Part shown: one piece after another, positions 4,367-63,493 of the stretch | Numbering within the stretch: position 1 is the first letter of the stretch | How the letters are laid out: every line of letters begins with the position of its first letter | Source of the DNA: Okamejei kenojei | Lineage: Eukaryota | Direction of reading: 5' to 3' | NCBI GenBank assembly: GCA_035221665.1 | Contig: CM069132.1 | Coordinates: 20,708,001-20,772,000 of the forward strand | Length of the DNA stretch: 64,000 nucleotides | Position numbers and translations under genes: made by a program | The notes under the pieces: generated by a model | What the model was told of the DNA's origin: nothing | Database searches by the model: none | Seen by the model: only the letters and a program-made list of their open reading frames with translations

Positions 4367-4502
4367 GTGTAGGAAGGAACTGCAGATATTGGTTTAAACC
4401 AAAGATAGACACAAAAAGGTGGAGCAACTCAGCGGGTCAGACCTGAAGAAGGGTCTCGACCCAAAACATTACCTATTCCTTTTCTCCTGAGATGTTGCCT
4501 TA
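4367..4502. mobile_element. Miniature Penelope-derived element with decayed hammerhead
   Basis: pLTR-type sequence, ctgaagaagggtctcgacccaaaacatt at 4443; flanked by acacacaaaatat(g/a)at at 4351-4366 and 4503-4518. Confidence 0.75.
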
Positions 4503-4649
4503 ACACACAAAATATAATCTTTGGAATACATTTTGAAAGGATACTTTTTAGCAAGGAAGTTGACAACAGAGTTGGATAATTTAAGGAGATATCCTACAAT
4601 CGGTTATATGTGGATTTTCTCCTTTCCTTAGAGAGATACTTTGCCAAAC

Positions 4650-4846
4650 GAAAGGACACAAAGCGCTGGAGTAACTCAGCAGGTCAGGAGTATCTCCAGA
4701 GAACATGGATAGGGGACGCTTCGGGTCGAGACGTCACCCATCACTGATCCATGTTCTCCAGGGATGCTACCAAACCTGCTGAGTTACTCCAGCGCTTTGT
4801 GCCCTTTGTGCATTAACCAGCATCTGCAGTTCTTTGTTTCTACACC
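4650..4846. mobile_element. Fold-back miniature Penelope-derived element
   Basis: Arms acaaagcgctggagtaactcagcagg / cctgctgagttactccagcgctttgt; flanking ttgccaaac at 4641-4649 and 4847-4855. Confidence 0.75.
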
Positions 4847-4989
4847 TTGCCAAACAACCTGCCATTATCAAGCTGACCACCTGATTCACCTCCTGGGGAG
4901 GTTTCTGGTCTTTAGCCCTAGCACCTTCCAAGACTCCCCCATGCCCAAGATTATAGATTCACTCTGTAGTGATTCCGTGCCGTTGTAGT

Positions 4990-5380
4990 TCATAAATTCA
5001 TAAGTGATAGCAAAGTTAGGCCATTCGGCCCATCAAGCCTACTCCGCCATTCAATCATGGCTGATCTCTCACTCCTTCCTCACCCCATTCTCCTCTCTTC
5101 TCCCCATAAATCCTGACACCCCTATTAATCAAGATTCTATCTATCTCCGCCTTAAAAATATACATTGACTTGGCGTCCAAAACCTTCTGTGGCAAAGAAT
5201 TCCACAGATTCACCACCCTCTGTCTGAAGAAATCCTCATTATCGCCTCCCTAAAGGAACGTCCTTTAATGCTGAGGCAGACCTCTGGCATAGACTTTCTC
5301 AGCAGCGGAAACATCCTCTCCACATCTATTCGATCCAGCCCTTTCAATATTCGATAAGTTTCAACTAGTCCCCCTCACCC
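4990..5380 (-). mobile_element. CR1 LINE 3' fragment
   Basis: ggccattcggcccatc..ccattcaatcatggctgatc and gaattccacagattcaccaccctctg (rc of QRVVNLWNS). Confidence 0.8.
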
Positions 5381-6118
5381 TGTATTGTATCCATGCTCCC
5401 AATCCTTTATGTTGGAATCTCTCTGCTCCTCCTGTGAATTTTTCAATGTCTGATTTAGGCAGACAAACTACAGTCACGGCTGGTCACATAAGCAAATAAT
5501 ATTAATTCAAATATGATTTTGGACTTATAGCAAGCCAAAGGCAAGCAGTGAGTGAATTTGTGGCATTTCCTTGGTTTTGAATTCTTTCATCCTTTGCTTA
5601 TGTAATGTTTGATTCCTCTGTTCTCAGAAATATCTGCGTAGGATATATTCATTGGGATTGGGAGAGTGAAATTGCTCATTTCAGCCTAGGATAATAAATA
5701 AGGCTGAGAACTGCGCACGGCATGAGTCCAGTGATTCATCCCTTATCCAGTGTCAAACAGAGCTACAGCACTTTATCTCCTTTGCTGCTGTGTTAATGGC
5801 AGAATAGAGGGGACAATATAATAATGGTACTTTTCGAACTCCGAATAAATCCCTGACATTTCGCAAACAAATGAACAGGGTCAGCGGAGTGAGGGGGGTG
5901 GTTAAGACTGTGGGAAAGCGTAGCTTTCTTTCAATCTGGCCTTCGGAGGCGCAGTGAAAAAGTGAGTGTGCTTGTCTCAGCTTAATGTCAATGGAACCTC
6001 AGGATCCCTGCAGTCTTTGCTCAACTAATAGTCTTCAAGTCGTCTTTGGTTGCAATAAGTGTGAAATATCTCTCTTGTGTGGCTCGCATCTTCATTAGTA
6101 GAAGTATTTGTTACAGCA

Positions 6119-6639: not shown

Positions 6640-6855
6640 GAAACACAAAATGATTGATGTCCGCGGGTCAGGCAGCTGCTGTGGAGTGAATGGAGAGACA
6701 ACATTATGGGTCGCGACTCTTCCTCAGACCGAAGAAGGGTCCCGACCCAAAACATTGTCTGTTCATTCCCTTCACAGATGCTGCCTGACTGCTGAGATCT
6801 TCCAGTACTTTGTGTTTTGCTCAAGATTCCAGCATCTGCAGTTCCCTGTGTTTCC
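6640..6855. mobile_element. Old fold-back Penelope-derived element
   Basis: Inverted arms around gaagaagggtcccgacccaaaacattg; ends in ccagcatctgcagttcc. Confidence 0.7.
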
Positions 6856-7592
6856 ATGCATTCCATGCATTCCAGCTGGTGTCGAGTGAACGCCTGCAGA
6901 CACACCCAAAACATCACTTCGTACATTTTTTAAGGAGTGTTTTGGGCTCATTCCTACCCTACCCCACCGCTCTGCCACACCTCAACCTTTGCACTTGCCC
7001 CTGAGTATGGCACATCGCACTGGTGTAGCACTGAAAGCACAGTTTTGAGGTTAGAGTCCATGTACACTGACAGAATAAACAGAGCGAGCAATCTCTTTGC
7101 ATCCGCTTTATTCCAATGTGAACCAAGGCGGCTTATTGTGGAGGCACCATGACAGGCCTTTAATCTTCAGCAGTGTATGGAGATGCTGGCACATAGTGCC
7201 GAATAAAACAAAGCAAAATTCAACCCAAATGCATATAATTCATGCCACCCAGGCTCTGTCCCGTCCCACTCAAGATGACATGACCTCAACCCATCCATTT
7301 GAGGAGTTTTCCACTTCAGATCGAGTTTCAATTGTGGACATGTGGTTAGAAATACTAAGTGTTTTACTTTATTCAATTCTGAGATCTACTACAGTCTGTT
7401 GCAGATTTGATGTTGAAACAGAATATATAGTCTTTGTCTGTAAATAGTCCTAGTTATATAAGACATTGCATATACAAATCTATTTTAATTCTTTTGGCTT
7501 CATGAAGACAGCATTTCCTTCAGACTCACTTGTTGGTTCATTTTATGTTGAATAGCCTAATGCTCGCTTCTTATTGATCTTTCCTTTTATTC

Positions 7593-9460: not shown

Positions 9461-9880
9461 GTTTAGTTTAGTTTATTATTGTCACATGTACCAAGTTATA
9501 GTGAAAAGAGTTTTTGTTGCATGCTCTTCAGTCAGCGAAAAGACATCTATGATTACAATCCAGCCATCCACCATGTACAGAAGCAGGATAAATTGTATAA
9601 TGTGTAGGAAGGAACAGCAGATGCTGGTTTACACCAAAGACAGACACAATATGCTGGAGTAACTCAGCGGGACAGGCAGCATCTCTGGAGTGAAGGAATG
9701 GGTGACGTTTCGGGTCGAGACCCTTCTTCAGACTTAATGCAAGAATGTTAAGTGCAAAATGATCTTGGCTGCGTCCACAACTCTCTCCAATTTCTTGCCG
9801 TCTTGGACGGAGCTGTTCCCAAACCATGCTGTGATGCATCCTGATAAAATGCTTTCTGTGGTGCAACTGTGGAAGTATCC
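9461..9880 (-). mobile_element. Rex-Babar 3' remnants interrupted by a Penelope-derived element (9602-9734)
   Basis: ESILSGCITAWFGNSSVQDGKKLERVVDAA in ORF 9734-9922; Rex-type end tttattattgtcacatgtacc. Confidence 0.7.
9701..9734 (-). ncRNA. Minimal hammerhead ribozyme motif, intact core
   Basis: rc = agtCTGAAGAaGGGTctcgACCCGAAACGTCacc: CUGANGA, stem II, GAAA, GUC. Confidence 0.65.
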
Positions 9881-14830: not shown

Positions 14831-14918
14831 CATGCTGAGAAAAACATTCTAACATTCCATCAAGTTTCCCCTCAGCCTCCGATACCCCAGTGAAATCAAT
14901 CCAAGTTTGTCCAAGTTT

Positions 14919-15012
14919 GTCTGAAGAAGGGTCCTGACCCAAAATGTCACCCATCCTTTTTCTCCAGAGATGTTGCCTGACCCACTGAGTTACTCCAGCA
15001 CTTTGTGTCTAT
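14919..15012 (+). mobile_element. Miniature Penelope-derived element starting at the hammerhead
   Basis: gtctgaagaagggtcctgacccaaaatgtcacc...; tccaagtttgtc repeated on both sides. Confidence 0.75.
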
Positions 15013-16422: not shown

Positions 16423-16526
16423 CATGGATGTATATGTGTATTTTGGGGAAATAAAATTCCTGTGGGCTTTGATAAGTTAGATGCAGAGCTGATGTTTTAT
16501 GCTGGTTGAAGAACCAAGAGTCACAG

Positions 16527-17035
16527 TCAAAATGTAGAAACAAGGAACTACAGATGCTGGTTTACCAAATTGACACCAACCGCTGGAGTAACTCGGCGGA
16601 TCAGGCAGCATCCATGGAGAACATGGATAGGTAGCATTTTGTGTCAGGACCCTTCTTCAGACTGATTTTGGGGGGGTGGCAGAAGAAAGCTAGAAGAGAG
16701 AGGGGAAGCAGTGAGAGATGGTCTTGCAGAACTCTTATTTGAGAGAGGAGAAGAGCTTCTTCAAAGTAAGCATACCTTGAGGGGATTTTGCTGTGGAGTA
16801 GTCAAAATGTAGAAACAAGGGACGGCAAGTGCTGGTTTCCAAAAAAAGGCACAAAGTGCTGGAGTAACTCAGCGGGTAAGGCAGCATCCCTGGAGAACAT
16901 GGATGAGTGACGCTTCGGGTTGGGACCCTTCTTCAGCCTGATTTTGGGTAGTGGGGGAAGAACGCAAGAAGAGAGAAGGGGAGCAATGAGATGGTGTCTG
17001 ACAGAACTCTCGTCGGAGAGAGGAGGAGAACTTGA
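16527..17035 (-). mobile_element. Tandem ~275-bp Penelope pLTR-like units
   Basis: gtcaaaatgtagaaacaagg at ~16527 and 16801; ccttcttcag (rc hammerhead core) at 16651 and 16927. Confidence 0.75.
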
Positions 17036-18335: not shown

Positions 18336-18526
18336 GTGTAGGAAGGAACTGCAGATGCTGGTTTACACCGAAGATAGACATTGAATGCTGGACTAACTCA
18401 GTGAGTCAGGCAGCATCTCAGGAGAAAAGGAACTGAAGAAGGGTCTCGACCCAAAACATCGCCTATTCCTTTTCTCCAGAGATGCTGCCTGACCCCGCTG
18501 AGTTATTCCAGCATTTTATGTCTATC
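18336..18526. mobile_element. Fold-back Penelope-derived element
   Basis: Inverted arms (gatagaca..atgctgga..caggcagcatctc / gagatgctgcctg..tccagcat..tgtctatc) around ctgaagaagggtctcgacccaaaacatc. Confidence 0.8.
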
Positions 18527-19384: not shown

Positions 19385-21626
19385 TGCTTAAAGGCAGATA
19401 AATCCCCAACATGATCAAGTCTATCCTAGGTCACTGTGGGAAGCTGGGGGAAAAAATGGGAGGCCCCAGGCAGAGATATTTGTATCATCGACTGCCACAG
19501 AGGGGCTGGAAGACCAGAGGTTGACAAATGTTGCACCTAAACTTACAAAAGCCTGCAAGAAAAAGCCTGGGAGCTACAGCATTGTGAGCCTTACATCAGA
19601 GGTGGGCAAGTTATTAGAAAGGATTCTGCAAGACCGAATCTGCAAGGATTTGCAGAGGCAAAGACTCATTAGAAACATGAGTTTCTACATGAGTTTAAAA
19701 CATAGAAACATAGAAAAAATGTGCAGGAGAAGGCCATCGGCTCTTCGAGCCATTCAATACACAATAGACAATAGGTGCAGGAGTAGGCCATTTCGCCCTT
19801 CGAGCCATTCAATGTGATCATGGCTGATCATCCCCAATCAGTACCCCGTTCCTGCCTTCTCCCCATATCCCCTGACTAGGCTATCTGTGAGAGCGGATGA
19901 TAAGAGCGGCAATATGACCATGGCCGATCATCCAGAATCAGTACCCCGTACCCGCTTCCTGTTTGACCTGTTTAGGAGAGGTGACCAAGCAGATTGATGA
20001 GGTCAGTACAGTACATGTTGTCTGTCGGACTTTAGCAAGACCTTTGACAAGGTACCACATGGTAGGCTGGTCTGGAAAGATAGATGACGTGGTATCCAAA
20101 GCAATCTATCCAATTTAATATCCAGCTTAAAGGAGACAGAGGTTAGGGTTTTGTTAGCTTATTGTCACATGTACCAGGATACAGTGAAAAGATTTTTGTT
20201 GTATGCTAGAAGATAGACACAAAATGCTGGAGTAACTCAGCAGGTTAGGCATAAGGAATAGGTGGCATTTCGGGTTGGAATCCTTCTTCAGGCTGAAAGA
20301 TAGAGGTGGTGGGGTAGGAAACAAACTGGAGGCGAGAAAGAACCAGAACAAATCAGGACTGGCAACAGATGACCTCAGGAAGGCTGGATTATACGTGATT
20401 ACAATAAAGTCGTCCACAGTGTGCAGATACAGGATGAAGGGACTAACATTTAGCGCAAGAGATCTGTGACCAGTGATGTGCCACATGGATTGGTGCTGGG
20501 TCCACAGCGGTTTGTTATTTATATTCATGTTTTGGACGAGAATGTAGGTGGCATGACTGGTTGGTTTGAGCACAACACTAAAATTGGTGGTGTATTGAAC
20601 AACGAAGGTGGTTATCTAATATCGTAATGGGATCTGGATCAATTGATCCAATAACCTAGGAATGACAGATGGGGTTCAGATAAAAGTGAGGTGGACAAAC
20701 CAGGGAAGGACTTACGCAGTGAATGGTTGAGCCAAGAGATGTGTTGTAAAACAGAGAGAGAAGGGATGCAAGCTTATAGTTCTTGAAAGTGGCAACACAG
20801 GTGCAAGGATTTGGAGAGCCAAAGACTCATTAGGAATAGATTTGCCTTCACTGGTCAGTGTATTGAGAATAGACACAGAATGCTGGAGTAACTCAGTGGG
20901 TTAGGCGGCATCTCTGGAGAAAAGGAATAGGTGACGTTTCGGGTTGAGGTCCTTCTTCAGACTGAAAGTCAGGGAAGAGGGAAACTAAAGGTATGAAAAG
21001 TTTCAGAAAGATCAGAGCCAGCAGTGTATTGAGCACAGGTTTATAACTGTACAATACGACGGTAAGGCCACATTCAGAGTAACATGTACAGTTCTGGTCA
21101 CCCTGCTATAGGAAGGATCTCATTAAACTGGAAAGGGTTCAACTATGATTTACAAGGATATTACTGGGTCAGGAAGGTTTAGGTTATAAAGAGAGGCTGG
21201 GTAGCTGAGGACTTTTTCCCTGGAGCACAGGAGGCTTAAAGTTTATGAAATCATGAGAGGCATGGTTAAAGTCATTGACCACATCGTTTTCCATGGATAG
21301 GGGTGTCAATTATTCCCAGAATAGGAGATTCAGTAACTATAGTGTCTTGGTTTAACCCGAGTGGGGAAAGATTTAAAAGGGAATCTGAGGGGCAACATTT
21401 TCACATAGAGTGTAGGGTTGTGAGTGGAACGAGCTGCCAGAAGTGGTACAATGATGATACTTAAAAGACACTTGGATAATTGCATGGATAGGAAAGGTTT
21501 AGAGGCATGTGGGCCAGACACAGTCAAGTGGGACTACCTAGGTAAGGCATTTTGGTTGGCATATGTGAATTAGGCCAAAGGTCCAGTTTCTGTGCTGCGT
21601 ATTTCTTTGGCTCTGTGACTCTATGA
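19385..21626 (+). mobile_element. Old fragmented CR1 (HER1-like) with nested insertions
   Basis: Decayed DKSP, VSLTSEVGKLLERIL, DFSK-FDKVPH, VQFWSP, GL-YKERL motifs in order, ending in a gactctatga tail; interrupted at ~19700-19955 (CR1, -), ~20150-20460 (Rex + Penelope) and 20868-21021 (Penelope). Confidence 0.8.
20868..21021 (-). mobile_element. Miniature Penelope-derived element with 12-bp TSD
   Basis: cagtgtattgag at 20856-20867 and 21022-21033; rc hammerhead at ~20931-20963. Confidence 0.85.
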
Positions 21627-24740: not shown

Positions 24741-24989
24741 GATCCAAAGAACTGCCAATGCTGGTTAATACACAAAAAGGACACATTGGCGCAGCGGTAG
24801 AGTTGCTGCCTTACAGCGCCGGAGACCCGGGCTCAATTCTGACAACATGTGCTGTCTGTACAGGGTTTGTACACCTATCCATGTTCATGAAATGTATCCA
24901 TTTATGTGAACAATGTATCCATAAAATGTCATCTATCCATGTTCTCCAGGGATGCTGCCTGACCCGCTGAATTACTTCAGCAATTTGTG
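24741..24989. mobile_element. Penelope / V-SINE-head chimera bounded by a 16-bp TSD
   Basis: tcctgaattaatccta at 24725-24740 and 24990-25005. Confidence 0.7.
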
Positions 24990-25124
24990 TCCTGAATTAA
25001 TCCTATTTTTTCTCCTCCCTACATTCTCCTCAACTCTCCCTAGATTCTACTGGTCAGTTACACATCAGGCACCTGAACTGCACATATCTCTCCAAATGTG
25101 ACTGAACCAAAGTCCTATTGTTAA

Positions 25125-25240
25125 GTGTAAGAAGGAACTGCAGATGCCGGTTTGAACCGAAGATAGACACAAAAAGCTGGAGTAACTCAGCGGGACAGGC
25201 AGCATCTCTGGGGAGAAGGAATGAGAGACGTTTCGGGTCA
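25125..25240 (-). mobile_element. Miniature Penelope-derived element
   Basis: gtgtaagaaggaactgcagatgc...gacgtttcgggtc, truncated inside the hammerhead. Confidence 0.75.
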
Positions 25241-25499
25241 AAAATTAAGAGACGCCAATTATATTTTGAACGGAGTGGAACTCGTTGACAACCAAAAAAA
25301 GAGAGCTGGTAGAAATTCTCACTAACCATTTGAGAACACTTAAAAAATGTGATAGATTTGCAGATTTTGAGGTCATCAATGGACATCGGTTTAGTGTAGG
25401 AAAGTGTTTCTGAGGGAAAATGTCAACTATGATCTTATTGAATGGTGGAATAAGCATGAGCAGCTGAAAACCCTTCTCCTGCTTCTATTTAATTTGTTG

Positions 25500-40228: not shown

Positions 40229-40388
40229 AACCTAAACTAAGTGAGTAAATGGACCATCCTCTATACTCACTGATGTACTCATGAATGGTATGATTTCCTG
40301 GATTTTGCGCTGTCAGTTGGTCTACATGACAATAATAAACCACTGGGCACAAAGTGCTCGAGTAACTCAGCAGATCAGCCGGCATCTT

Positions 40389-40672: not shown

Positions 40673-40699
40673 TCACCACTCGGTCACGATCCTTGTTCA

Positions 40700-40897
40700 G
40701 AAACGTCACCCATCCATGTTCTCCAGAGATGCTGCCTGACCCGCTGAGTTACTCCAGCACTCTGTGAAACGTCACCTACCCATGTTCTCCAGAGATGCTG
40801 CCTGACCCTCTGAGTTACTCCAGCACTCTGTGAAACGTCACCTATCCATGTTCTCCAGAGATGCTGCCTGACCCGCTGAGTTACTCCAGCACTGTGT
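40700..40897 (+). repeat. 3 x 66-bp tandem of Penelope pLTR sequence
   Basis: Units start GAAACGTCACC at 40700, 40766 and 40832. Confidence 0.9.
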
Positions 40898-41304
40898 GTC
40901 CTCTGGTGTATTAACCAACATCTCCAGTTTCTTATTTCTAAATAATAACCCAAGACCACATTTTCATCAATCCCCCTCAGATTCTACCACTCATCTGCAC
41001 ATTTGGGGCTATTTATGGTGGCCTGTTTACCTTCCAATCCACACATCTTTGAGATGTAAGAGGAAACCAGTGCACCTGGAATGCTGGAGGAAACCCACAC
41101 AGTCACATGGAGACCATGCAAACCCCACACTGACAGTACCGGAGGTCAGGAACAAACCCTGGTCGCTGGAACTGCAAGACGCTAGGCTCTGTTAACTGCA
41201 TCACAGTGCTACCCCCCCCCCCCCCCCCCCCCCCCACAGACACAGGTGGATTAATACAAAGAATATACATTGTATGTCATGAGGAAAAATACTCTGGCTG
41301 CGGA

Positions 41305-42297: not shown

Positions 42298-42470
42298 TAC
42301 CCATTCCTTCTCTCCAGAGATGATGCCTGTCCAGTTGAGTTACTCCAGCATTTTGTGTCTATCTTTAATATATGCTAGGTAGACACAAAATGCTGGAGTA
42401 ACTCAGCGGGACAAGCAGCATCTCTGGAGAGAAGGAACGGGTGACGTTTCGGGTCGAGACTGATACATGA
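42298..42470. mobile_element. Two opposed miniature Penelope-derived elements
   Basis: Plus copy 42298-42364, minus copy 42379-42462; tttaatata(t/a)gctag at 42364-42378 and 42471-42485. Confidence 0.75.
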
Positions 42471-46110: not shown

Positions 46111-46201
46111 GTCGGAAGAAGGGTCTCGACCCGAAACGTCACCCATTCCTTTTCTCCAGAGATGCTGCCTGTCCTGCTGAGTTACTCCAGCATTTTGTGC
46201 C
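46111..46201 (+). mobile_element. 91-bp Penelope-derived element with 14-bp TSD
   Basis: ttgcctca(a/t)ctctc at 46097-46110 and 46202-46215; insert starts gtcggaagaagggtctcgacccgaaacgtcacc. Confidence 0.85.
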
Positions 46202-47508
46202 TTGCCTCATCTCTCCACAGATTCTGCAGGTTAGGAATAATTTATAGTCACCGATTAACCCACAGAACCACACGCCCATGAGACGTGGAGGAAACTGGAT
46301 TACCGTTGGGGGGTGGAAGCAATGTGGTCACACCTTATATGCAAACTTCATTTAGACCCCCAGGATCCAAGGCCAGGTTTGTACCTGGGTTACTGGGTCT
46401 GTGCAGTCGGTAGCAGCTCCACCATCTGCACCACTGTGTCATCCAGCAGTCTGCAGTGCACTTCCTAACTTTTGATGCATAGACCTTCAGGTTACAGTGC
46501 CTTGAGTAGACCTCCAAACACTTTTTAAATATATGACAATGGTTTTTCTCTCTCTGTCATCTTCATAGGTAGTGAGTTCCAGACTCCTAACAACCATTAT
46601 GTAAAAGCATTTTTCAGCTACCCTCTAATCCTTTAAGCGTTTAAAGTTTAGTTGAATAAGAGATCACTAATCTTTTTAGTGCAGTTCTCTCAGCAGATAC
46701 CGCAATTTATCAAGAAGAAAAGATAGAAATGTAAAGGATTTGAAAAAAAAACGATTGCAGTCAGACAGGCCTTCATTAGTTCCACACCATTCATTTACTT
46801 GGCACCCCCAGCGTATCTGCAGTCTTCTCTATATCCTTCTGCGGCAAAATGTGAACAAGTATTGCTTCTCAATATAAATCACCACGTCATCATCAGGCAG
46901 TTTTCACTCTACCATCCTTCGAGGTCAACGAAGTGTCTTATCTTTCTGAAAATGTTAAAGTGGTTACCCAATAATAATAAACACAGAAAATGCTGGAATT
47001 GCTCGGCAAGTCAAGTAGCATTTGTGGAAAGGGAAAGAGTTAATGTTCCAGTTCAAAAACTATTTGTCGGAACTGATTCCTTTGCAGTTTTAATGGGAAG
47101 TGGCAGAGATAGAGAAAAGTGCACAGACTAAAAACTGAAAATGCTGGAAACATAACTGGTCAAGCAGCACCCTTTAATTGAGTTGAGGAGTTTAGTTTAG
47201 AGATGTAGTGCGGAAAACAGGCCCTTCGGCCCACTAAGCGAAACCAATGTCACTAATGTCGCTTTGTCACTAAACCAGTAAAGAATTTCACTGTGCTGTG
47301 CATACGTGACAATAAAAAACCATTGATCCATTGAACCAACATTTTATTTCATTATAAATGTTAGTAAATAGTACCATACCTGAGTCACATATTGATCAAC
47401 CTTCTTCCGATTTTCTGGCACGAATGTACACTAGGGACAATTCATAGTGACCAGTTTGCCTGCCGATCTTGGTGGGTCATGCAAACCGCTATTCTGAATA
47501 ATACCCCA

Positions 47509-47727
47509 TGCAGATGCTGGTTTAAATCGTAGGTAGACACAAAATGCTGGAGTAACTCAGAGGGACAGCCAGCATCTCTGGGGAGAAGGAATGGGTGATG
47601 TTTCGGGTCGAGACACTTCTTCAGACTCAGACTTCAGTCTCTGAAGAAAGGTCTCGGCCCGAAACGTCACCCATTCCTTCTCCCCAGAGATGCTGCCTGT
47701 CCCACTGAGTTACTCCAGCATTTTGTG
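47509..47727. mobile_element. Near-perfect fold-back Penelope-derived element, one hammerhead motif per strand
   Basis: ~85-bp inverted arms 47538-47624 and 47640-47727. Confidence 0.85.
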
Positions 47728-47799
47728 AATACTTTTTTGTAGGGTCGGGTAGAGGGGCAGTGGGGATGAGTTTATGGAGCCAAGAGGACGGTGGCCCGG

Positions 47800-48106: not shown

Positions 48107-48143
48107 ACATGGAATCCACCGCACAGACTGTACCTGCAGACCC

Positions 48144-49959: not shown

Positions 49960-50335
49960 ACACCTTACGCCTCCTCCCTCAACTTCATCCAGGGACCCCG
50001 ATAGTCCTTTCAGATGAGGCAGAGGTTTACCTGCACCCCGTACAACCTCATCTACTGTATCTGGTGCTCCTGGTGTGGGCTCCTATATATCGGCGAGACC
50101 AAGACCGATCGTTTCACTGAACACTTAGGTACAGTCTGCCATGACCTACATGTTCTCCCAGTTGCCAAATATTTTAACTCCCCTTCCCACTGACCTTTCT
50201 GTCCTGGGCCTCCTCCACAATCAGAGTGAGGCCAAATGCTAATTGGAGGAACAGCACCTTATGTTTCGCTTGGGCAGTTTACAACCCAGCGTTACGATTA
50301 TAGATTTCTCTCATTTCAAGTAACTCCTGCATTTC
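49960..50335 (+). mobile_element. Penelope-like element, GIY-YIG region (continues at 52812)
   Basis: QGP..SFQMRQRFTC..NLIYCIWCSWCGLLYIGETK..EHL..EEQHLMFRLGSLQP. Confidence 0.85.
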
Positions 50336-52809
50336 ATAGAAACATAGAAACATAGAAAATAGGTGCAGGAGTAGGCCATTCGGCACTTCGAGCCTGCACC
50401 GCCATTCAATATGATCATGGCTGATCATCCAACTCAGTATCCTGTACCTGCCTTCTCTCCATACCCCCTGATTCCTTTAGCCACAAGGGCCACATCTAAC
50501 TTCCTCTTAAATATAGCCAATGAACTGGCCTCAACTACCTTCTGTGGCAGATAATTCCGGAGACTCACCACTCTCTGTGTGAAAAATGTTTTCCTCATCT
50601 CGGTCCTAAAGGACTTCCCCCTTATCCTTAGACTGTGACCCCTTGTTCTGGATCTCCCCAACATCGGGAACAATCTTCCTGCATCTAGCCTATCCGATCC
50701 ATTAAGAATTTTGTAAGTTTCTATAAGATTCCCCCTCAGTCTTCTAAATTCTAGCGAGTACAAGCCAAATCTATCCAGTCTTTCCTCATATGAAAGTCCT
50801 GACATCCCAGGAATCAGTCTGGTGAACCTTCTCTGTACCCCCTCTATGGCAAGAATGTATTTTCTCAGATTTGGAGACCAAAACTGTACGCAATACTCCA
50901 GGTGTTGTCTCACCAAAACCCTGTACAACTGCAGTAGAACCTCCCTGCTCCTATACTCAAATCCTTTCACTATGAATGCAAACATACCATTTGCTTTCTT
51001 CACTGCCTGCTGCACGTGCATGCCTACTTTCAATGATTGGTGTACCATGACACCCAGGTCTCGTTGCATCTCTCCTTTTCATAATTTGCCACCATTAAGA
51101 TAAAAGTCTACCCTCCTGTTTTTGCCACCAAAGTGGATAACCTCACATTTATCCACATTATACTGCATCTGCCATGCATTTGCCCACTCACCCAGCCTAT
51201 CCAAGTCATCTTGCAGCCTCCTAGCATCCTCCTCACACCTAACACTATCCCCCAGCTTAGTGTCATCCTCAAACTTGGAGATGTTGCATTCATTTCCCTC
51301 GTCCAAGTCATTAATATATATTGTAAATAGCTGGGGTCCCAGCACTGAGCCTTGCGGTACCCCACTAGTCACTGCCTGCCATTCTGAAAAGGACCCGTTT
51401 ACTCCTACCCTTTGCTTCCTGTCTGCCAGCCAGTTCTCCATCCACATCAATACTGAACCCCCAATACCGTGTGCTTTAAGTTTGTATACTGATCTCTTAT
51501 GTGGGACCTTGTCGAAGGCCTTCTGAAAGTCTAGATATAACACATCCACTGGTTCTCCCTTATCCACTCTGCTAGTTACATCCTCGAAAAATTCTATAAG
51601 ATTCGTCAGACATGATTTACCTTTCGTACCTTTCGTAAATCCATGCTGACTTTGTCTAATGATTTCACCACTTTCCAAATGTACTGCTATCCCATCTTTA
51701 ATAACTGACTCTAGCAGTTTCCCCACTACCGATGTTAGACTAACTGGTCTGTAATTCCCCGTTTTCCCTCTCCCTCCTTTTTTAAAAAGTGGGGTTACAT
51801 TAGCTACTCTCTAATCCTCAGGAACTACTCCAGAATCTAAGGAGTTTTGAAAAATTATCACTAATGCATCCACTATTTCTGTGGCTACCTCCTTGAGTAC
51901 TCTGGGATGCAGTCTATCTGGCCCTGGGGATTTATCGGCCTTTAATCCATTCAATTTACCCAACACCGCTTCTCGGCTAACCTGGATTTCACTCAGTTCC
52001 TCCACCTTATTTGACCCCCGGACCCCTGCTATTTCCGGCAGATTATTTATGTCTTCCTTAGTGAAGACAAAACCAAAGTAGTTATTCAATTGGTCTGCCA
52101 TGTCCTTGCTCCCCATGATCAATTCACCTGTTTCTGACTGCAAGGGACCTACATTTGTTTTTACTAACCTTTTTCTCTTCATATATCTATAAAAACGTTT
52201 GCAGTCAGTTTTTATGTTCCCTGCCAGTTTTCTTTCATAATCTATTTTCCCTTTCCTAATTAAACCCTTTGTCCTCCTCTGTTGAACTCTGAATTTCTCC
52301 CAGTCCTCTGGTAGGCTGCTTTTTCTGGCTAATTTCTATGCTTCATCTTTTGTTTTTATACTATCCCTGATTTCCCTTGTTATCCATGGATGCACTACCT
52401 GCCCCGATTTATTCTTTTGCCAAACTGGGATGAACAATTGTTGTAGTTCATCCATGCAGTCTTTAAATACCTTCCATTGTACATCCACTGTCAACCCTTT
52501 AAGAATCACTTGCCAGTCTATCTTGGCCAATTCACTTCTCATACCTTCAAAGTTACCTTTGTTTAAGTTCAGAACCCTTGTTTCTGACTTAATTTTGTCA
52601 CTCTCCATCCTAATGAAGAACTCAACCATATTATGGTCACTCTTGCCCAAGGGGCCCCGCACAACAAGGCTGCTAACTAACCCTTCCTCATTACTCAATA
52701 CCCAGTCTAGAATAGCCTGCTCTCTCATTGGTTCTACATGTTGGTTTAGAAAACTATCCCACATACATTCCAAGAAATCCTCTTCCCCTGCCCATTTGAT
52801 TCACCCAAT
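50336..52809 (-). mobile_element. 5'-truncated CR1 LINE, ORF2 disrupted
   Basis: ORFs 50434-52773 are near-identical to the other CR1 copies; (catagaaa)n tail; atttc at both junctions (50331-50335, 52808-52812). Confidence 0.95.
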
Positions 52810-52811
52810 TT

Positions 52812-53150
52812 CCTACCACCCTCTCCCCCCCTCCCCCTCCCTAGTTGTCCTGCCAATGCCACTGTTCGCATCCTTGTATCTCTCTCGTTAGCACCTCTTC
52901 CCCAGTTAACAATAGGCCATTATGGTCTCCACCCTTCCTGAGGTCATCTGTTGCCAGCTCTGATTTGTTCTGGCTTTTTCTCACCTCGTTTTTTTTCCCC
53001 CACCCCACCACCTCTACCTTTCAGTCTGAAGAAGGATTCCGACCCGAAACATCACCTATTCTCCAGAGATGCTGTCTGACCCGCTGAGTTACTCCAGCAT
53101 TTTGTTTCTACCTTCGGAATAAACCCGCATCTGCAGTTCCTTCCCACACA
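52812..53150 (+). mobile_element. Penelope 3' pLTR (continuation of 49960-50335)
   Basis: cagtctgaagaaggattccgacccgaaacatcacc..gcatctgcagttccttcccacac. Confidence 0.85.
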
Positions 53151-54002
53151 CTTCTCGTATTTTTTATCCCAATACTGCCACAAAGAAGTAGGTACTTAAA
53201 GAGACCTAGCACTTCTGGAGTTAAACTTTGCTCTGTCATCAGAGTTATTGAAATCTCTACTGGAGAGTGAGCATTGTATGCCCTCTATTGGGACAAATAT
53301 CTTGCATTTTTTTTTGCCTGTTCAGGAAGGTGACAGTTTTAATGCTCCTCTCTGGATTAACACGGATGGCATTATAATAGTGATTTTTGACAGTTTTGTC
53401 AGTATTTCATTACGCTCACGAGCCTGATTTATATAATTATATAATGTCGCTTGATGTTCAAACATTTGGTATAATTTCAGTCAAATAATGAATCCGTTTT
53501 TGCTTCAGCGTCTCGGTTTATTTTATTTTGATATCTGTACCATGGGGCATTTAAATTTTAATTACATATTTTTAACGTTTTAAATAATGGAGAAGTATTA
53601 ATGGTCTGCAGAACTCCATGATAATGAGATCTGTATTATATATATATATATATTTGCCTAGTTTCAAACAGTTATTATAAGGTAGAATAAATGGCTGGGG
53701 ATACTCTTCTAAGTGTTTGGTCTGGCCCAATTGTAATGAATCTTTGCGACACAATCTCCATGTTTACAGTTATATTTCACATCCTAAATTTCAACAGCTC
53801 TAGCCTCTGAGCAAGTAGATGGTGGCAGAGGTCACAGCCCCCTCTCAACCAAAGCGGACTGATAAATAGGAAGCGGACGGGGAAAACGCTGGAAGTTGGA
53901 GGGACAGGCCTGGGGAGGGGGTGGTGGGGGGGGGGGGGGGTAGGTCTATAGAGAAAGAAAGGTCACCAATCAGGCTACGATCCCCTACCAATGACTGAAA
54001 AA

Positions 54003-54134
54003 CCCCTATATCTCTCGTTTCCCTTATCCATTACCAGTCTGAAGAAGGGTCTCGACCCGAAACGTCACCCATTCCTTCTCTCCAGAGATGCTGCCTTATC
54101 TGCTGAGTTACTCCAGCTTTTTGTGTCTATCTTC
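54003..54134 (+). mobile_element. Miniature Penelope-derived element with 9-bp TSD
   Basis: actgaaaaa at 53994-54002 and 54135-54143. Confidence 0.8.
54035..54069 (+). ncRNA. Minimal hammerhead ribozyme motif, intact core
   Basis: cagtCTGAAGAaGGGTctcgACCCGAAACGTCacc. Confidence 0.65.
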
Positions 54135-55389: not shown

Positions 55390-55483
55390 AGTCTGAAGAA
55401 GGGGGTTTGACCCGAAACGTCACCTATACCTTTTCTCCAGAGATGCTGCCTTACCCACTGAGTTACTCCAGCATTTTATGTGT
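55390..55483 (+). mobile_element. Miniature Penelope-derived element
   Basis: gtctgaagaagggggtttgacccgaaacgtcacc..gagttactccagcatttt. Confidence 0.8.
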
Positions 55484-56074
55484 AACTTTTTAAGTGTTGT
55501 CACAGTACATGTTTCAAACAACCCCTCAGTCAGTTAGTTTCAGATTGAAATCATTCACGAGGTGAAAATAATTTTCCTCAGATCCTCCTTGACCTGCTTA
55601 TTCCTCACCTTATTCCAAGGCTTCGTAGTTTTAGATGTCACCACTACAAGGAAATATTTCTCACCATCCATCCAATCTATGGCCCTCACTTCTGACTGAA
55701 TGTCCCAGCACACTTTCTCCAACCATCACTAAGAAACAGGACTAGGTGTTCATCCTCATTCATTGAGAGGGATGGAGGGAAAACAGAGAAGTGGAAGAGG
55801 GAAGAATGTGAGGCAGGAGAGAAAGAAGGAGTCAGAACACAAGATGGGTAAGTGGAGGAAGGGCAACTACAATAACAAGAACATAATGATCATCTAGACA
55901 CATTGGGCTGAAGGGTCTGTTTCCAAGGTGTAGAACACGGCAGTCCCATGACACTAGAACAACCTGTTCCTTATTTTGAAATACGATGTTGGCAACATAA
56001 CTTTGAACTCTACTGTACATCTACCACCACTCTCACAAGCTTGCTGTGAGGATATCTATGTAGTATACCACCAG

Positions 56075-58461: not shown

Positions 58462-58577
58462 TTTCCCTGATCCCTGACCAGTCTGAAGGAGGGTCTCGAC
58501 CTGAAACGTCGCCTATCTCCTTCGCTCCTTAGATGCTGCTGCACCCGCTGAGTTTCTCCAGCTTTTTGTGTAACCCC
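58462..58577 (+). mobile_element. Miniature Penelope-derived element with 16-bp TSD
   Basis: cccttcactccacccg at 58446-58461 and 58578-58593. Confidence 0.8.
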
Positions 58578-58633
58578 CCCTTCACTCCACCCGCTGCTTC
58601 CTAAACCCAAGCCAATAATGTATCTAATTTATT

Positions 58634-59147
58634 GACACAAAAAGCTGGGGTAACTCAGCGGGTCGGGCAGCATCTCTGCAGAAAAGGAGTTGGCGCCATT
58701 TTGGGTCAAAACCTTTCTTCAGACAGAGTCAGTGGGGAGAGTAACAAGCGGTATGAAAAGTTTCAGAACAAATCAGAGCTGGCAGCGATAACCAAGGAAA
58801 AGCGGAGCCCACAATGATCCATTGTTGGCTGTAGAAGAAGTGACAACAAAGGGATATGTGAAAGCGAATAGTGAAACTAGCAGGACGGCTAGGGTGGGGG
58901 AGGGGCCGAGTGAGAGGGAGTGCACTTGAAATTATAGATATCAATATCAATACCACTGGGTATAGCTGCCCAAGCAAAATACGAGGTGCTGTTCCTTCAC
59001 TTTGCATGTGGCCTCACTCTGACAGTGGAGGACTGTTCCAAAACATCGATTCCTTCTCTCCAGAGAAGCAGCCTGACCCGCTGTGTTACTCCACCATTTT
59101 GTGACTTATCTTCGATACAAACCAGCATCTGCAGTTCCTTCCCACAA
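58634..59147. mobile_element. Penelope fragment with inverted arrangement
   Basis: Minus-strand pLTR and ORF end (58634-59035) fused to a plus-strand pLTR end (59036-59147). Confidence 0.75.
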
Positions 59148-59276
59148 ATTGTATCCAATTTGACAGCTCACCATGGATATCCTCTGGACCAGCCTAACAT
59201 GTGAAAGACCTTGATAAAGTCTAAGTGTACAACATCTACTGCCCTGCCCTAGTTGATCCTCTTGGTCACCTCGTCA

Positions 59277-59670: not shown

Positions 59671-62650
59671 TGTGGCAGGGGGATGGGTACAAGAGCAGAG
59701 AGGCAGGAGGGTGTAAAATGAGGGTAGAAGCATTAGGTAGCAAGGTGAAAGGTAAAAGTGGCAGGCAGACAAAACCAGGGCAAAAATCAAAAAGGGCCAC
59801 TTTTCAGCAAAATTGTATAAGGGGTAAATGCGTTGTAAAGACAAGCCTGAAGGCTTTGTGTCTCAATGCAAGGAGTATTCGTAATAAGGTGGACGAGTTG
59901 AACGTGCAGATAGATATTAATGATTATGATATAGTTGGGATCACGGAGACATGGCTCCAGGGTGACGTAGGCTGGGAGCTGAACATCCAGGGATATTCAA
60001 TATTCAGAAGGGATAGAGAGAAAGGAAAAGGAGGTGGGGTAGCGTTGCTGGTTAGAGAGGAGATTAAAGCAATGGAAAGGAAGGACATTAGCTTGGAGGA
60101 TGTGGAATCGGTATGGGTAGAGCTACAAAACACTAAGGGGCAGAAAACGCTGGTGGGTGTTGTGTACAGGCCACCTAACAGTAGCAGAGAAGTTGGGGAT
60201 GGTATCAAACAGGAAATTAGAAATGCGTGCGACAAAGGCAAAACAGTTATAATGGGTGACTTCAATCTACATATAGATTGGGTTAATCAAATTGGCAGGG
60301 GTGCTGAGGAAGAGGATTTTTTGGAATGTATGCGGGATAGTTATCTAAATCAACATGTAGAGGAACCAACGAGAGAGCAGGCTATTTTAGACTGGGTTTT
60401 GAGTAATGAGGAAGGGGTAATTAGCCGTCTTGTTGTACGTGCCCCCTTGGGCAAGAGTGACCATAATATGGTTGAGTTCTTCATTAGGATGGAGAGTGAC
60501 ATTGTTAATTCAGAAACAATGGTTCTGAACTTAAAGAAAGGTAACTTTGAGGGTATGAGACGTGAATTGGCCAAGATTGACTGGCAATTAATTCTAAAAG
60601 GGTTGACGGTGGATATACAATGGAAGACATTTAAAGATTGCATGGATGAACTACAAAAAATTGTTCATCCCAGTTTGGCAAAAGAATAAATCGGGGAAGG
60701 TAGTGCATCCGTGGATAACAAGGGAAATCAGGGATAGTATCAAAGCAAAGGATGATGCGTACAAAGTAGCCAGAAAAAGCAGCATACCAGAGGACTGGGA
60801 GAAATTCAGAGACCAGCAGAGGAGGACAAAGGGCTTAATTAGGAAAGGAAAAATAGATTATGAAAGAAAACTGGCAGGGAACATAAAAACTGACTGCAAA
60901 AGTTTTTATAGATATGTGAAGAGAAAGAGGTTAGTTAAAACAAATGTAGGTCCCTTGCAGTCAGAAACAGGTGAGTTGATCATGGGGAACAAGGATATGG
61001 CGGACCAATTGAATAACTACTTTGGTTCCGTCTTCACTAAGGAAGACATAAATAATCTGCCTGAAATAGCAGGGGACTGTGGGTCAAAGGAGGAATTGAG
61101 TGAAATCCAGGTCAGTCGGGAAGTGGTGTTGGGTAAATTGAATAGATTAAAGGCCGATAAATCCCCAGGGCCAGATAGGCTGCATCCCAGAGTACTTAAG
61201 GAAGTAGCTCAGGAAATAGTGGATGCATTAGTGATAATCTTTCAAAACTCTTTAGATTCTGGAGTAGTTCCTGAGGATTGGCGGGTAGCAAATGTAACCC
61301 CTCTTTTTAAGAAGGGAGGGAGAGAGAAAACGGGGAATTACAGACCAGTTAGTCTAACATCGGTAGTGGGGAAACTGCTAGAGTCAGTTATTAAAGATGG
61401 GATAGCAGCACATTTGGAAAGTGGTGAAATCATTGGACAAAGTCAGCATGGATTTACAAAAGGTAAATCATGTCTGACGAATCTTGTGGAATTTTTCGAG
61501 GATGTAACTAGTAGCGTGGATAAGGGAGAACCAGTGGATGTGGTATATCTGGACTTCCAGAAGGCTTTCGACAAGGTCCCACATAAGAGATTAGTATACA
61601 AACTTAAAGCATACGGTATTAGGGGTTCAGTATTGATGTGGATAGAGAACTGGCTGGCAAACAGGAAGCAAAGAGTAGGAGTAAACGGGTCCTTTTCACA
61701 ATGGCAGGCAGTAACTAGTGGGGTACCGCAGGGCTCAGTGCTGGGGACCCCAGCTATTTACAATATATATTAATGATCTGGATGAGGGAATTGAAGGCAA
61801 TATCTCCAAGTTTGCGGATGACACTAAGCTGGGGGGCAGTGTTCGCTGTGAGGAGGATGCTAGGAGACTGCAAGGTGACTTGGATAGGCTGGGTGAGTGG
61901 GCAAATGTTTGGCAGATGCAGTATAATGTGGATAAATGTGAGGTTATCCACTTTGGTGGCAAAAACAGGAAAGCAGAATATTATTTAAATGGTGGCCGAT
62001 TAGGAAAAGGGGAGATGCAGCGAGACCTGGGTGTCATGGTACACCAGTCATTGAAAGTAGGCATGCAGGTGCAGCAGGCAGTGAAAAAAGCGAATGGTAT
62101 GTTAGCTTTCATAGCAAAAGGATTTGAGTACAGGAGCAGGGAGGTTCTACTTCAGTTGTACAGGGTCTTGGTGAGACCACACCTGGAGTATTGCGTGCAG
62201 TTTTGGTCTCCAAATCTGAGGAAGGACATTATTGCCATAGAGGGAGTGCAGAGAAGGTTCACCAGACTGATTCCTGGGATGTCAGGACTGTCTTATGAAG
62301 AAAGACTGGATAGACTTGGTTTATACTCTCTGGAATTTAGGAGATTAAGAGGGGATCTTATAGAAACTTACAAAATTCTTAAGGGGTTGGACAGGCTAGA
62401 TGCAGGAAGATTGTTCCCGATGTTGGGGAAGTCCAGGACAAGGGGTCACAGCTTAAGGATAAGGGGGAAATCCTTTAAGACCGAGATGAGAAAGACTTTC
62501 TTCACACAGAGAGTGGTGAGTCTCTGGAACTCTCTGCCACAGAGGGTAGTTGAGGCCAGTTCATTGGCTATATTTAAGAGTGAGTTGGATGTGGCCCTTG
62601 TGGCTAAGGGGATCAGAGGGTATGGAGAGAAGGCAGGTACGGGATACTGA
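59670..62650 (+). pseudogene. CR1 ORF2 (APE endonuclease + reverse transcriptase), two +1 frameshifts
   Basis: NARS, ITETWL, GGGV, YRPP, GDFN, SDH; RT with KFADDTK; ORFs 59670-60689, 60646-61773 and 61718-62650 join into ~992 aa. Confidence 0.95.
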
Positions 62651-62823
62651 GTTGGATGATCAGCCATGATCATATTGAATGGCGGTGCAGGCTCGAAGGG
62701 CTGAATGGCCTACTCCTGCACCTAATTTCTATGTTTCTATGTTTCTATGTCACCTCGTCAAAAAACTCAATCAAATTTGGGAGACAGAATCGCCCGGGAA
62801 TTAAGCCATAGTAGCTATCCCTA

Positions 62824-63003
62824 AAAGGACACAAAGTGCTGGTGTAACTCAGCAGGTCAGGCAGCATCTCTGGAGAACATAGATAGGTGACATTTTGGGT
62901 CGGGACTCTCAATCTGAAGAAGTGTCCCGACCTGAAACGTCACCCATACTTTTTCTCCCAAGATGTTGCCTGACCTGCTGATTTACTCCAGCACTTTTGT
63001 CTA
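62824..63003. mobile_element. Fold-back Penelope-derived element
   Basis: Inverted arms around ctgaagaagtgtcccgacctgaaacgtcacc. Confidence 0.8.
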
Positions 63004-63176
63004 TAATTGTGGAATTCTTATTTCTATGTTAACACTTTGCCGAACTCACATTAACTTGGCTGCTCACTTGTAATGGAATTTGACAAAAGCTTTGAGTTAA
63101 CCTCTCCACTTTCTATGTTTTCGCCTCAAACCCACAATATACTCATGGCATGAAATTGTTTTCTGGTAATTTGTTC

Positions 63177-63493
63177 TGAAGATAGACAAAAAATGGAGGA
63201 GCAACCCAGCAGGTCAAGCAGCATTTCTGGAGAAAAGGAATAGGCGATGTTTCGGGTCAGATCTCTTCTTCATGCTGAGAGTCAGTGGTGGGGGGGACTG
63301 TAGGCAAGAAAAGGCCAGAACAAATCAGGGCCGGCAACAGATGACCTCAGGCATGGAGGAGTCCATAATGGCCCATTGTTGGCTGGAGAAGATGTGGTAA
63401 CGGGAGGGATACAAGGATGCACAGAGGGGGAGCACTGAGAGAGGCTGTTGCAAAACTCCCGTCTGAGAGAAGAGGAGAACTTCTTCAAAGTAA
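63177..63493 (-). mobile_element. Penelope pLTR unit
   Basis: Homologous to 52900-53115 (rc) and to the gagaggagaacttcttcaaagta block of the 16527 tandem. Confidence 0.75.

What the first reader, a model, noticed from the sequence alone, without database searches (positions are those of the whole stretch)
4367..63493. Abundant miniature hammerhead-bearing Penelope derivatives with their own TSDs (retrozyme-like family)
Seen: over 20 short non-coding copies share CTGAAGA-A-GGGTCTCGACCC-GAAACGTC or its flank, with intact cores at 9701 (-), 35407, 54039 and 55393. Many are 90-250 bp with 9-16 bp direct repeats (4367, 4650, 14919, 20868, 46111, 54003, 58462), so they are individual insertions. 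The same motif ends GIY-YIG-coding fragments (35158; 49960/52812). Established: Penelope-like elements carry minimal type I hammerheads that lack a stable stem III and are proposed to act as dimers. Inference: a very high-copy non-autonomous ribozyme retroelement family in this lineage. Caveats: stem I pairs weakly (about 2 bp), there is an extra A after CUGANGA, and they could simply be severe truncations of full elements.
Basis: partly seen in the sequence, partly recalled or inferred. Interest (0 to 1): 0.8.

Follow-up and report, generated by a model that had tools for sequence, protein, structure and literature searches.

The report
Penelope retrotransposon end fragments, decayed ribozymes
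These are many short, broken-off ends of a known jumping-gene family (Penelope-like elements) in a skate-like fish genome; each carries a mostly decayed self-cutting RNA motif, which is ordinary, except that many copies stop at the same few bases.

Summary
The same ~90-nt unit ends GIY-YIG endonuclease fragments whose relatives are Neptune-type Penelope-like elements (PLEs) of cartilaginous fish.

The retrozyme reading mostly fails. Insert lengths run 46-672 bp with no unit size. Only 1 of 34 arms starts at the hammerhead cut site. The single head-to-tail dimer has two dead cores. Only 3 of 24 cores are fully intact, there is no stem II covariation, and catalytic bases decay as fast as flanking bases. 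Two fixed 3' ends (the PLE 'tail'), 5' truncation and 8 inverted doublets are published PLE insertion anatomy. The extra A and short stem I are also published.

Two loci are internally deleted mini-elements, so non-autonomous templates exist. One unexplained feature: 11 of 34 5' ends fall within 5 nt at the ribozyme's 5' edge, perhaps reverse-transcription run-off at an RNA 5' end.

Verdict: new member of a known kind.

The parts
4364..4502 (.). Inverted doublet: minus arm +55..+131 (with tail) joined to plus arm 0..+59; positions are relative to hammerhead C3; 13-bp TSD
4650..4846 (.). Inverted doublet, both arms lack CUGANGA (start +10 and +23); 9-12-bp TSD
6641..6857 (.). Inverted doublet of a divergent subfamily, arms meet at the palindrome at the ribozyme's 5' edge; cores mutated; no clear TSD
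9600..9734 (-). Solo pLTR end plus tail (-3..+131) with a perfect minimal hammerhead core (C3 at 9731); no TSD found
14915..15010 (+). Solo end (-2..+89), 16-bp TSD, G12 mutated
16525..17033 (-). Head-to-tail partial dimer, unit 276 bp: tail, putative ORF start (segment X), deletion, short 3' UTR, hammerhead. Non-autonomous mini-PLE; both cores dead; units 79% identical
18336..18526 (.). Inverted doublet: minus arm +33..+129 (tail), plus arm 0..+92
20209..20388 (-). 5'-truncated end with about 98 nt of 3' UTR
20868..21021 (-). 5'-truncated end (-61..+92), 12-bp TSD, catalytic boxes intact, stem II broken
24920..24993 (+). End fragment lacking CUGANGA (+17..+89)
25125..25243 (-). End fragment plus tail lacking CUGANGA (+11..+129)
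33378..33543 (+). Older divergent copy (-46..+126)
34865..35536 (.). Inverted insertion with 11-15-bp TSD: minus arm holds endonuclease C-terminus, UTR and hammerhead (C3 34954); plus arm holds a GIY-YIG fragment (35158-35390), a deletion, an intact core (C3 35407) and the tail
40346..40391 (-). Short end fragment starting at -3, with an internal deletion that removes stem II
40700..40943 (+). Three tandem 66-bp units (+20..+85, no CUGANGA) plus tail; local amplification, not a ribozyme array
42299..42470 (.). Two end fragments facing each other across a re-duplicated AT-rich target; the plus one is the only arm starting at the cut site (+28); the minus one has a 9-15-bp TSD
46111..46201 (+). 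Solo end (-2..+88), 14-bp TSD with one mismatch, U4 mutated
47505..47735 (.). Inverted doublet with slipped repeats of the TTCAG-T-CTGAA palindrome at the junction
49960..50335 (+). Decayed GIY-YIG endonuclease coding region of a Neptune-type PLE (frameshifts and stops); continues at 52800 after a CR1 insertion
52800..53151 (+). 3' UTR (pyrimidine-rich, ends in CAG), hammerhead (C3 53026) and tail of the same PLE copy
54003..54134 (+). End fragment (-36..+95), 9-bp TSD, perfect core (C3 54039)
55390..55489 (+). Solo end (-3..+95), catalytic boxes intact, 2-nt insertion at stem II; TSD doubtful
58462..58577 (+). End fragment (-21..+94), 16-bp TSD, A9 mutated; groups with the endonuclease-linked 35407 copy (99/99 support)
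58631..59149 (.). Inverted insertion with 12-bp TSD (one mismatch): minus arm runs from endonuclease C-terminus through UTR and hammerhead without a break; plus arm +18..+131
62823..63004 (.). Inverted doublet, arms +7..+92 and -4..+91
63179..63489 (-). Internally deleted mini-element inserted as one 311-bp unit with a 13-bp TSD: segment X joined to distal 3' UTR, hammerhead (C3 mutated), first 3' end

Best explanation
The copies are terminal fragments (solo pseudo-LTR ends, with or without the ~38-nt tail, and inverted doublets) of several subfamilies of a Neptune-type, GIY-YIG-encoding Penelope-like retrotransposon in a cartilaginous fish. Mechanism: the PLE protein nicks an AT-leaning target and primes reverse transcription at one of two fixed sites on uncleaved element RNA (about +92 or +131 from hammerhead C3). 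Synthesis usually ends within about 100 nt. When both target strands prime, two cDNAs meet head-to-head and join by microhomology, often at the short palindrome on the ribozyme's 5' edge, giving the inverted doublets. The hammerhead is in nearly every copy because it lies 65-130 nt upstream of the priming sites; after insertion it decays neutrally. Templates are mostly autonomous-type RNA, plus some internally deleted mini-elements. Shown here: shared ends with endonuclease-coding copies, TSDs, two 3' ends, variable 5' ends, neutral decay. Inferred from published PLE work: the priming chemistry, uncleaved template, two-strand priming.
For: Endonuclease, UTR, hammerhead and tail are colinear, contiguous at 59032-58631 and split by CR1 at 49960-53151. 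Relatives are PLE proteins with RT and a CX2-5CxxC linker in 43 of 78 hits that had enough upstream sequence. A zebra shark PLE protein reads through into the same motif. 3' ends: 20 of 34 arms at +86..+96 and 13 of 34 at +118..+136; 5' ends range from +55 to about -600. Two endonuclease-bearing insertions have TSDs like the short ones. Short copies need 5 label changes on the tree against a shuffled mean of 6.2 (99 of 500 shuffles as low), and 58483 groups with endonuclease-linked copies at 99/99. Catalytic non-CpG bases differ in 8 of 120 cells against 56 of 710 downstream, p=0.85, in 12 subfamily-A copies. Literature describes 5' truncation, inverted 5' copies, the 30-40-bp tail, solo pLTRs and 8-10-bp TSDs (PMC8557442, PMC3846280), and two internal RT start sites with uncleaved RNA as the main substrate (PMC11167929).
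Against: 11 of 34 5' ends sit in one 5-nt window, which smooth truncation does not give. No PLE reverse transcriptase or full element is in the window, so the parent is known only from fragments and relatives. One subfamily has no endonuclease-linked copy here; its only long relative is the non-autonomous dimer. The tree is mostly unresolved (1 of 19 branches strongly supported). A copy truncated inside the pLTR cannot show which template made it. One window only.
Confidence: 0.78

Rival explanations
1. Run-off model (compatible with the same parent): transcripts start, or are processed to start, at about -3 (the A of CAGU before CUGA). RT primes at the tail site near the 5' end of that RNA and runs off after 95-135 nt, so many minis are complete copies of an RNA 5' segment and not truncations.
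For: 11 of 34 arms end at -4..0 (P<1/20000 under three smooth nulls); 8 of 23 when only TSD- or junction-fixed ends are kept (P 0.006 to <0.0001 by null scale). 8 of 12 copies that keep the upstream bases match a recalled initiator consensus YYANWYY with A at -3. In the anole PLE, RT starts 111-118 nt into the ORF and shorter 5' ends give shorter products (PMC11167929).
Against: 6 of the 11 piled-up ends are arms of inverted doublets, where a palindrome (TTCAG-T-CTGAA) can explain the junction without an RNA end. The same bases read as a polypyrimidine tract plus CAG splice acceptor (pyrimidine fraction 0.73-0.90 in 10 of 11), as in D. virilis, where the intron ends at helix I (PMC4209133). 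The initiator consensus is low in information. A predicted hairpin from +2 to +44 could also release the cDNA there. No RNA data.
Confidence: 0.3
2. One reading: a discrete non-LTR retrozyme family whose RNA self-cleaves as a dimer, circularises and is inserted by PLE proteins.
For: A 276-bp head-to-tail dimer and a 311-bp TSD-flanked unit are internally deleted and non-coding. Chondrichthyan retrozyme families averaging 363 bp are reported and proposed to derive from PLE pLTRs (10.64898/2026.07.22.740005). 3 of 24 cores are fully intact.
Against: 1 head-to-tail dimer in 26 events, both cores dead. 1 of 34 arms starts at the cut site. Lengths 46-672 bp. Stem covariation is no higher than shuffles (85/500 for pairs changed on both sides, 35/500 for score). 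Predicted P(stem II)<=0.03 in five constructs from four copies, and the dimeric hammerhead fold evaluates at -6.1 against -21.5 kcal/mol for the best two-strand fold (this model ignores core tertiary contacts). The two mini-elements have different deletions and belong to different subfamilies.
Confidence: 0.12
3. The motif is a SINE tail or chance hairpin unrelated to ribozymes or PLEs.
For: No Rfam hammerhead model matched at E<=10, in the whole window or in a 141-nt region; the hammerhead fold is not the predicted ground state.
Against: Both catalytic boxes, the G10.1-C11.1 pair, the extra base after A9 and the palindromic 15.2-16.2 bases match the published minimal PLE hammerhead (PMC4209133), and the motif sits at the end of PLE endonuclease copies.
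Confidence: 0.03

Closest known systems
Neptune-clade Penelope-like elements (C-terminal GIY-YIG, CX2-5CxxC linker, CCHH motif)
   Same: Endonuclease type with CxxC inside the GIY-YIG core, hammerhead in the pLTR, 5' truncation, inverted 5' arms, 30-40-bp tail, TSDs, partial tandems.
   Different: No full element or RT in the window; the linker is seen only in relatives; very short copies dominate and 5' ends pile up at the ribozyme edge; targets are mildly AT-rich (62% against 57%), not microsatellites.
Minimal PLE hammerheads (Cervera and de la Pena 2014, PMC4209133)
   Same: CUGANGA and GAAA boxes, one extra base between 9 and 10.1, G10.1-C11.1, palindromic 15.2-16.2 with no stem III, mostly single copies from truncated PLEs, opposite-strand pairs 100-700 bp apart; a 2-bp helix I beside a splice-acceptor-like site as in D. 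virilis.
   Different: Stem II is 4-5 bp (they report 6-8 bp for the cases described) and N7 is A; a downstream strand is predicted to sequester the core.
Metazoan non-LTR retrozymes (PMC7229834; 10.64898/2026.07.22.740005)
   Same: Non-coding, type I hammerhead, PLE-derived; the 276-bp dimer has the right size and layout.
   Different: Defined as tandem repeats with complete hammerheads in at least two consecutive units and unit-length RNAs; here 1 dimer in 26 events, both cores dead, the rest single or inverted end fragments.
PAc (Poseidon of Anolis carolinensis; PMC11167929)
   Same: Two 3' ends about 38 nt apart, extension on both target strands, ribozyme cleavage apparently not setting insertion ends.
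   Different: Different PLE clade; here the putative ORF start lies after the tail, not inside stem II (unconfirmed).

Membership tests
EN+ Penelope-like element | C-terminal GIY-YIG endonuclease with cysteines inside the core (CCHH) | tested here: met
   35164-35313 and 50050-50184 carry the core with CxxC; Pfam GIY-YIG E=0.0034, 18.1 bits, under the 22.6 cutoff because it is a fragment; 88% identical to a Leucoraja erinacea record; tblastn E 1e-27 with P0157
EN+ Penelope-like element | Telomerase-like reverse transcriptase in the same ORF | tested here: inconclusive
   No PLE RT sequence in the window; present in relatives P0157, P0158, P0016, P0146
EN+ Penelope-like element | pLTR with optional 30-40-bp 3' tail | tested here: met
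   3' ends at +86..+96 (20 of 34) and +118..+136 (13 of 34)
EN+ Penelope-like element | 5' truncation, inverted 5' copies, partial tandems, TSDs | tested here: met
   8 inverted doublets and 1 partial tandem among 26 events; 11 of 27 tested events with significant TSDs
Neptune clade | CX2-5CxxC zinc-finger-like linker upstream of GIY-YIG | tested here: inconclusive
   Window fragments begin just downstream of the linker; 43 of 78 related proteins with enough upstream sequence have it, including the closest long ones. Nematis also has a linker; no RT phylogeny was made.
Minimal type I PLE hammerhead | CUGANGA, extra base, stem II closed by G-C, GAAA, palindromic 15.2-16.2, UH triplet | tested here: met
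   10 of 24 keep boxes and triplet; 3 of 24 keep everything
Minimal type I PLE hammerhead | Helix I of 4-5 bp (2 bp in the D. virilis variant) | tested here: inconclusive
   2 bp in most copies, 90.5% of cells paired
Minimal type I PLE hammerhead | Covariation in stems | tested here: not met
   Not above shuffles in 24 copies; copies are decayed and related, so power is low
Minimal type I PLE hammerhead | Self-cleavage as a dimer or with protein help | not testable with these tools
   Needs in vitro transcription; folding predicts an inactive alternative hairpin
Rfam hammerhead families | Match to a curated covariance model | tested here: not met
   No hammerhead hit at E<=10
Non-LTR retrozyme | Tandem repeat with complete hammerheads in at least two consecutive units | tested here: not met
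   One dimer, cores mutated at A15.1 and at G12; the 66-bp trimer lacks CUGANGA
Non-LTR retrozyme | Discrete monomer bounded by cleavage sites | tested here: not met
   1 of 34 arms starts at +27..+29; lengths 46-672 bp
Non-LTR retrozyme | Non-coding unit related to a PLE pLTR | tested here: met
   Met for two loci only, 16525-17033 and 63179-63489
Non-LTR retrozyme | Expressed as unit-length linear and circular RNA | not testable with these tools
   No RNA data

The most novel reading that the evidence does not exclude
Skate PLEs mass-produce a discrete 95/135-nt mini-copy because reverse transcriptase primes at the tail near the 5' end of the RNA and runs off at a start site that sits at the hammerhead's 5' edge. 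Solo and inverted pLTRs would then be complete products of an alternative priming choice, not truncations. At this window's density (26 events in 64 kb) that would be a SINE-scale ribozyme-bearing repeat class, and skate genomes would be a natural record for mapping PLE priming, termination and the role of the ribozyme.
Probability: 0.25. Interest if true: 0.6.

Novelty: new member of a known kind. Interest (0 to 1): 0.3.

Why it matters
As it stands, it adds cartilaginous fish to the lineages with abundant minimal PLE hammerheads and shows that such fragments can fill about 9% of a window, which matters for repeat annotation. My searches found no paper describing this family, but Dfam and Repbase were not available and a preprint's closed supplements include one chondrichthyan. 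The real use is mechanistic: how PLEs make solo and inverted pLTRs, and whether their ribozyme takes part, is still open. The two fixed 3' ends, the absence of ends at the cut site and the 5' pile-up are genome-scale observations that can test the in vitro model from the anole element.

Tried and rejected
Rfam: no hammerhead match in the window or in one intact copy; the microRNA hits at 42325 and 47552 are the inverted arms forming hairpins, not microRNAs. Covariation test: negative. RNAalifold on 14 tail-bearing pieces: no consensus structure; four single copies fold no better than shuffles (z -1.1 to +0.25). Segment X as ORF start: 11 identical codons with 5 silent changes between 63491(-) and dimer unit 1, but over the whole 24 codons 6 silent against 8 replacement, and only 2 against 10 for unit 2; no protein match, so it stays unconfirmed. 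A spliced-exon origin of the solo 5' ends: the three solos with AAG before the core share no further base with the candidate exon end in the dimer, so not supported. An ORF running through the core and tail: open in some copies but stopped by TGA in many, so rejected. GTDB genomes: 0 exact matches. Lunse et al. 2016 was not held. Source names for unnamed protein hits stayed unchecked. No covariance model was built, since the alignment shows no covariation to model. Viral and metagenome contigs stayed unchecked.

Full report
Setting. The window is repeat-rich animal DNA with CR1-like, L2-like and L1-like ORF fragments (the family names are from my knowledge, Pfam gives only RVT_1 and endonuclease domains). 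The best protein match of the GIY-YIG piece at 35164-35313 is a Leucoraja erinacea record at 88% identity, and longer relatives come from zebra shark and bamboo shark, so a skate-like cartilaginous fish is inferred. Positions below are relative to hammerhead base C3 (0); the cut would leave a 5' end at +28.

Observation. A profile from six copies gave 42 hits, 39 at E<=1e-3. The core pattern matched 11 times with up to 3 mismatches against 0 in 100 shuffles. I grouped the hits by hand into 26 insertion events covering 5,718 bp, 8.9% of the window, and 34 arms. Five of the 39 hits were left out of the arm count: two older divergent pieces (18548, 46984), two internal units of the 66-bp trimer and the second unit of the dimer. 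TSDs were tested on 27 events (the 26 plus 46979) against 250 random placements.

Anatomy of the parent. The order is GIY-YIG endonuclease, about 230 nt of pyrimidine-rich UTR ending in CAG, hammerhead core, about 65 nt, a first 3' end, then an optional tail of about 38 nt. It is contiguous at 59032-58631(-) and split by a CR1 insertion at 49960-50335/52800-53151. Of 78 related proteins with enough upstream sequence, 43 carry the CX2-5CxxC linker that marks Neptune and Nematis PLEs (PMC8557442). The window fragments start just past it, so the clade is assigned through relatives. The zebra shark protein P0157 reads through its UTR and ends in SLMKGLRPKRQ, while window copies read SLKKGLDPKRH across the core. 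I infer the same motif at the same place in a shark PLE. No PLE RT is present in the window.

Ends. 33 of 34 arms end in one of two zones, +86..+96 (20) or +118..+136 (13); 5' ends run from +55 to about -600, median arm 108 nt, and events span 46-672 bp. Eight events are inverted doublets with 3' ends facing out, and in six of them one arm carries the tail. This is the published anatomy of PLE insertions: 5' truncation, inverted 5' copy and 30-40-bp tail (PMC8557442); solo pLTRs, 8-10-bp TSDs, palindromes at inverted junctions and microhomology deletions (PMC3846280). In vitro, the anole PLE primes at two internal sites that bound the tail, extends both target strands and does not need ribozyme cleavage (PMC11167929). 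Only 1 of 34 arms starts at the cut site. Two endonuclease-bearing insertions have TSDs like the short ones. On a tree of 22 core sequences the short copies are not more clustered than shuffled labels (5 changes against a mean of 6.2), and 58483 groups with endonuclease-linked copies at 99/99; the rest of the tree is poorly resolved.

The ribozyme. The motif fits the minimal PLE hammerhead, including the extra base after A9, which Cervera and de la Pena list as conserved, and the 2-bp helix I seen in D. virilis (PMC4209133). Of 24 pieces spanning the core, 10 keep both boxes and the triplet and 3 keep everything (9731, 54039, 35407). Changes concentrate at CpG sites: G12 to A in 7, C15.2 to T in 6, G16.2 to A in 8 of 24. 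In 12 subfamily-A copies (the other 10 of 22 left out as other subfamilies) catalytic non-CpG bases differ as often as downstream bases, 8 of 120 against 56 of 710, p=0.85. Covariation does not exceed shuffles. Folding puts the core into an alternative hairpin with the strand just downstream, with P(stem II)<=0.03 in five constructs from four copies. In 35407 stem II forms but part of the first catalytic box is still paired. These models ignore tertiary contacts. Rfam has no match. Activity was not tested.

Two loci are non-autonomous. 16525-17033(-) is a partial head-to-tail dimer with a 276-bp unit, and 63179-63489(-) is a 311-bp unit with a 13-bp TSD. Both join a shared segment X to different points of the 3' UTR. 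X looks coding over 11 codons (five silent changes) and follows the tail in the dimer, so it is probably the ORF start, but protein searches did not confirm it and the signal is absent in the second dimer unit. These units resemble retrozyme precursors, and a 2026 preprint reports PLE-derived retrozymes in one chondrichthyan. By that paper's definition, and that of PMC7229834, they fail: both dimer cores are dead. A copy truncated inside the pLTR cannot reveal its template, so some short copies may come from such minis, above all in the subfamily that has no endonuclease-linked copy here.

The unexplained part. Eleven of 34 5' ends fall at -4..0 (P<1/20000 under three smooth nulls); 8 of 23 do when only TSD- or junction-fixed ends are kept (P 0.006 to <0.0001). 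Arms of one doublet are not independent and the boundaries were set by hand. Three causes fit. First, joining of the two cDNAs at the palindrome TTCAG-T-CTGAA, visible with slipped repeats at 6729 and 47641; this covers up to six arms but not the five solos. Second, run-off at an RNA 5' end near -3, where 8 of 12 copies match a recalled initiator consensus. Third, release of the cDNA after the +2..+44 hairpin. The same bases also look like a splice acceptor, as in D. virilis.

Verdict. Real, abundant and explained by known PLE biology: a new member of a known kind, interest 0.3. Retrozyme membership was tested and not met. The 5' pile-up is the one lead worth a genome-wide check.

Papers seen: PMC4209133 parts 1-2 of 4 and a term search of 2 of 3 supplementary files (no shark or skate entry); PMC11167929 parts 1-2 of 4; 10.64898/2026.07.22.740005 parts 1-3 of 5, supplements closed and possibly listing this family; passages only of PMC8557442, PMC7229834, PMC6765202, PMC3846280 and PMC8455134; abstract and passages of PMC2377424; Lunse 2016 only as a reference entry. 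Searches that found no description of this family. Dfam and Repbase were not available.

Noticed in passing
window 11523-14012 (+), 50350-52800 (-), 59225-62650 (+): Three CR1-like LINE copies with endonuclease and RT frames; the 59-62 kb copy is nearly full length with a few frameshifts; the 50-52 kb copy interrupts a PLE.
   Followed up: partly
window 48083-49341 (+): L2-like LINE fragment with an RT domain (Pfam RVT_1); family name from recall.
   Followed up: no
window 30709-31859 (-): L1-like RT fragment in the low-GC part of the window (Pfam RVT_1); family name from recall.
   Followed up: no
window e.g. 24790-24870, 25516-25980, 40450-40680, 42000-42290, 54716-55102: Many copies of a tRNA-derived SINE ending in (TAAAC)n-like repeats, resembling the elasmobranch HE1/V-SINE type (recalled); several PLE ends sit in or beside their tails (40391, 42299, 24920).
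   Followed up: no
window 44225-44250 (-): Partial Rfam CPEB3 ribozyme match, 25.6 bits against a gathering score of 35, E=0.016; probably chance.
   Followed up: no
window 18548-18703 (-), 46979-47171 (-): Older, more divergent pLTR pieces of a further subfamily, lying in pairs; cores decayed.
   Followed up: partly
window 16773-16785 (-) and 16663 (-): In the dimer unit a donor-like AAG/GTATG lies just before segment X and an acceptor-like CAG just before the hammerhead, which would define an intron of about 120 nt; untested.
   Followed up: partly
window 42364-42485: One AT-rich target seems to have been duplicated twice, by two PLE ends in opposite orientation.
   Followed up: partly
pLTR, about +47..+54 and the tail: An 8-base stretch upstream is complementary to an 8-base stretch in the tail, and a CCAGCA motif precedes both 3' ends; it may mark the priming sites, but the alignment fold gave no consensus structure.
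   Followed up: partly
window 43100-43350, 45600-45740: Assembly gaps (360 N in all), one inside a (TG)n microsatellite.
   Followed up: no
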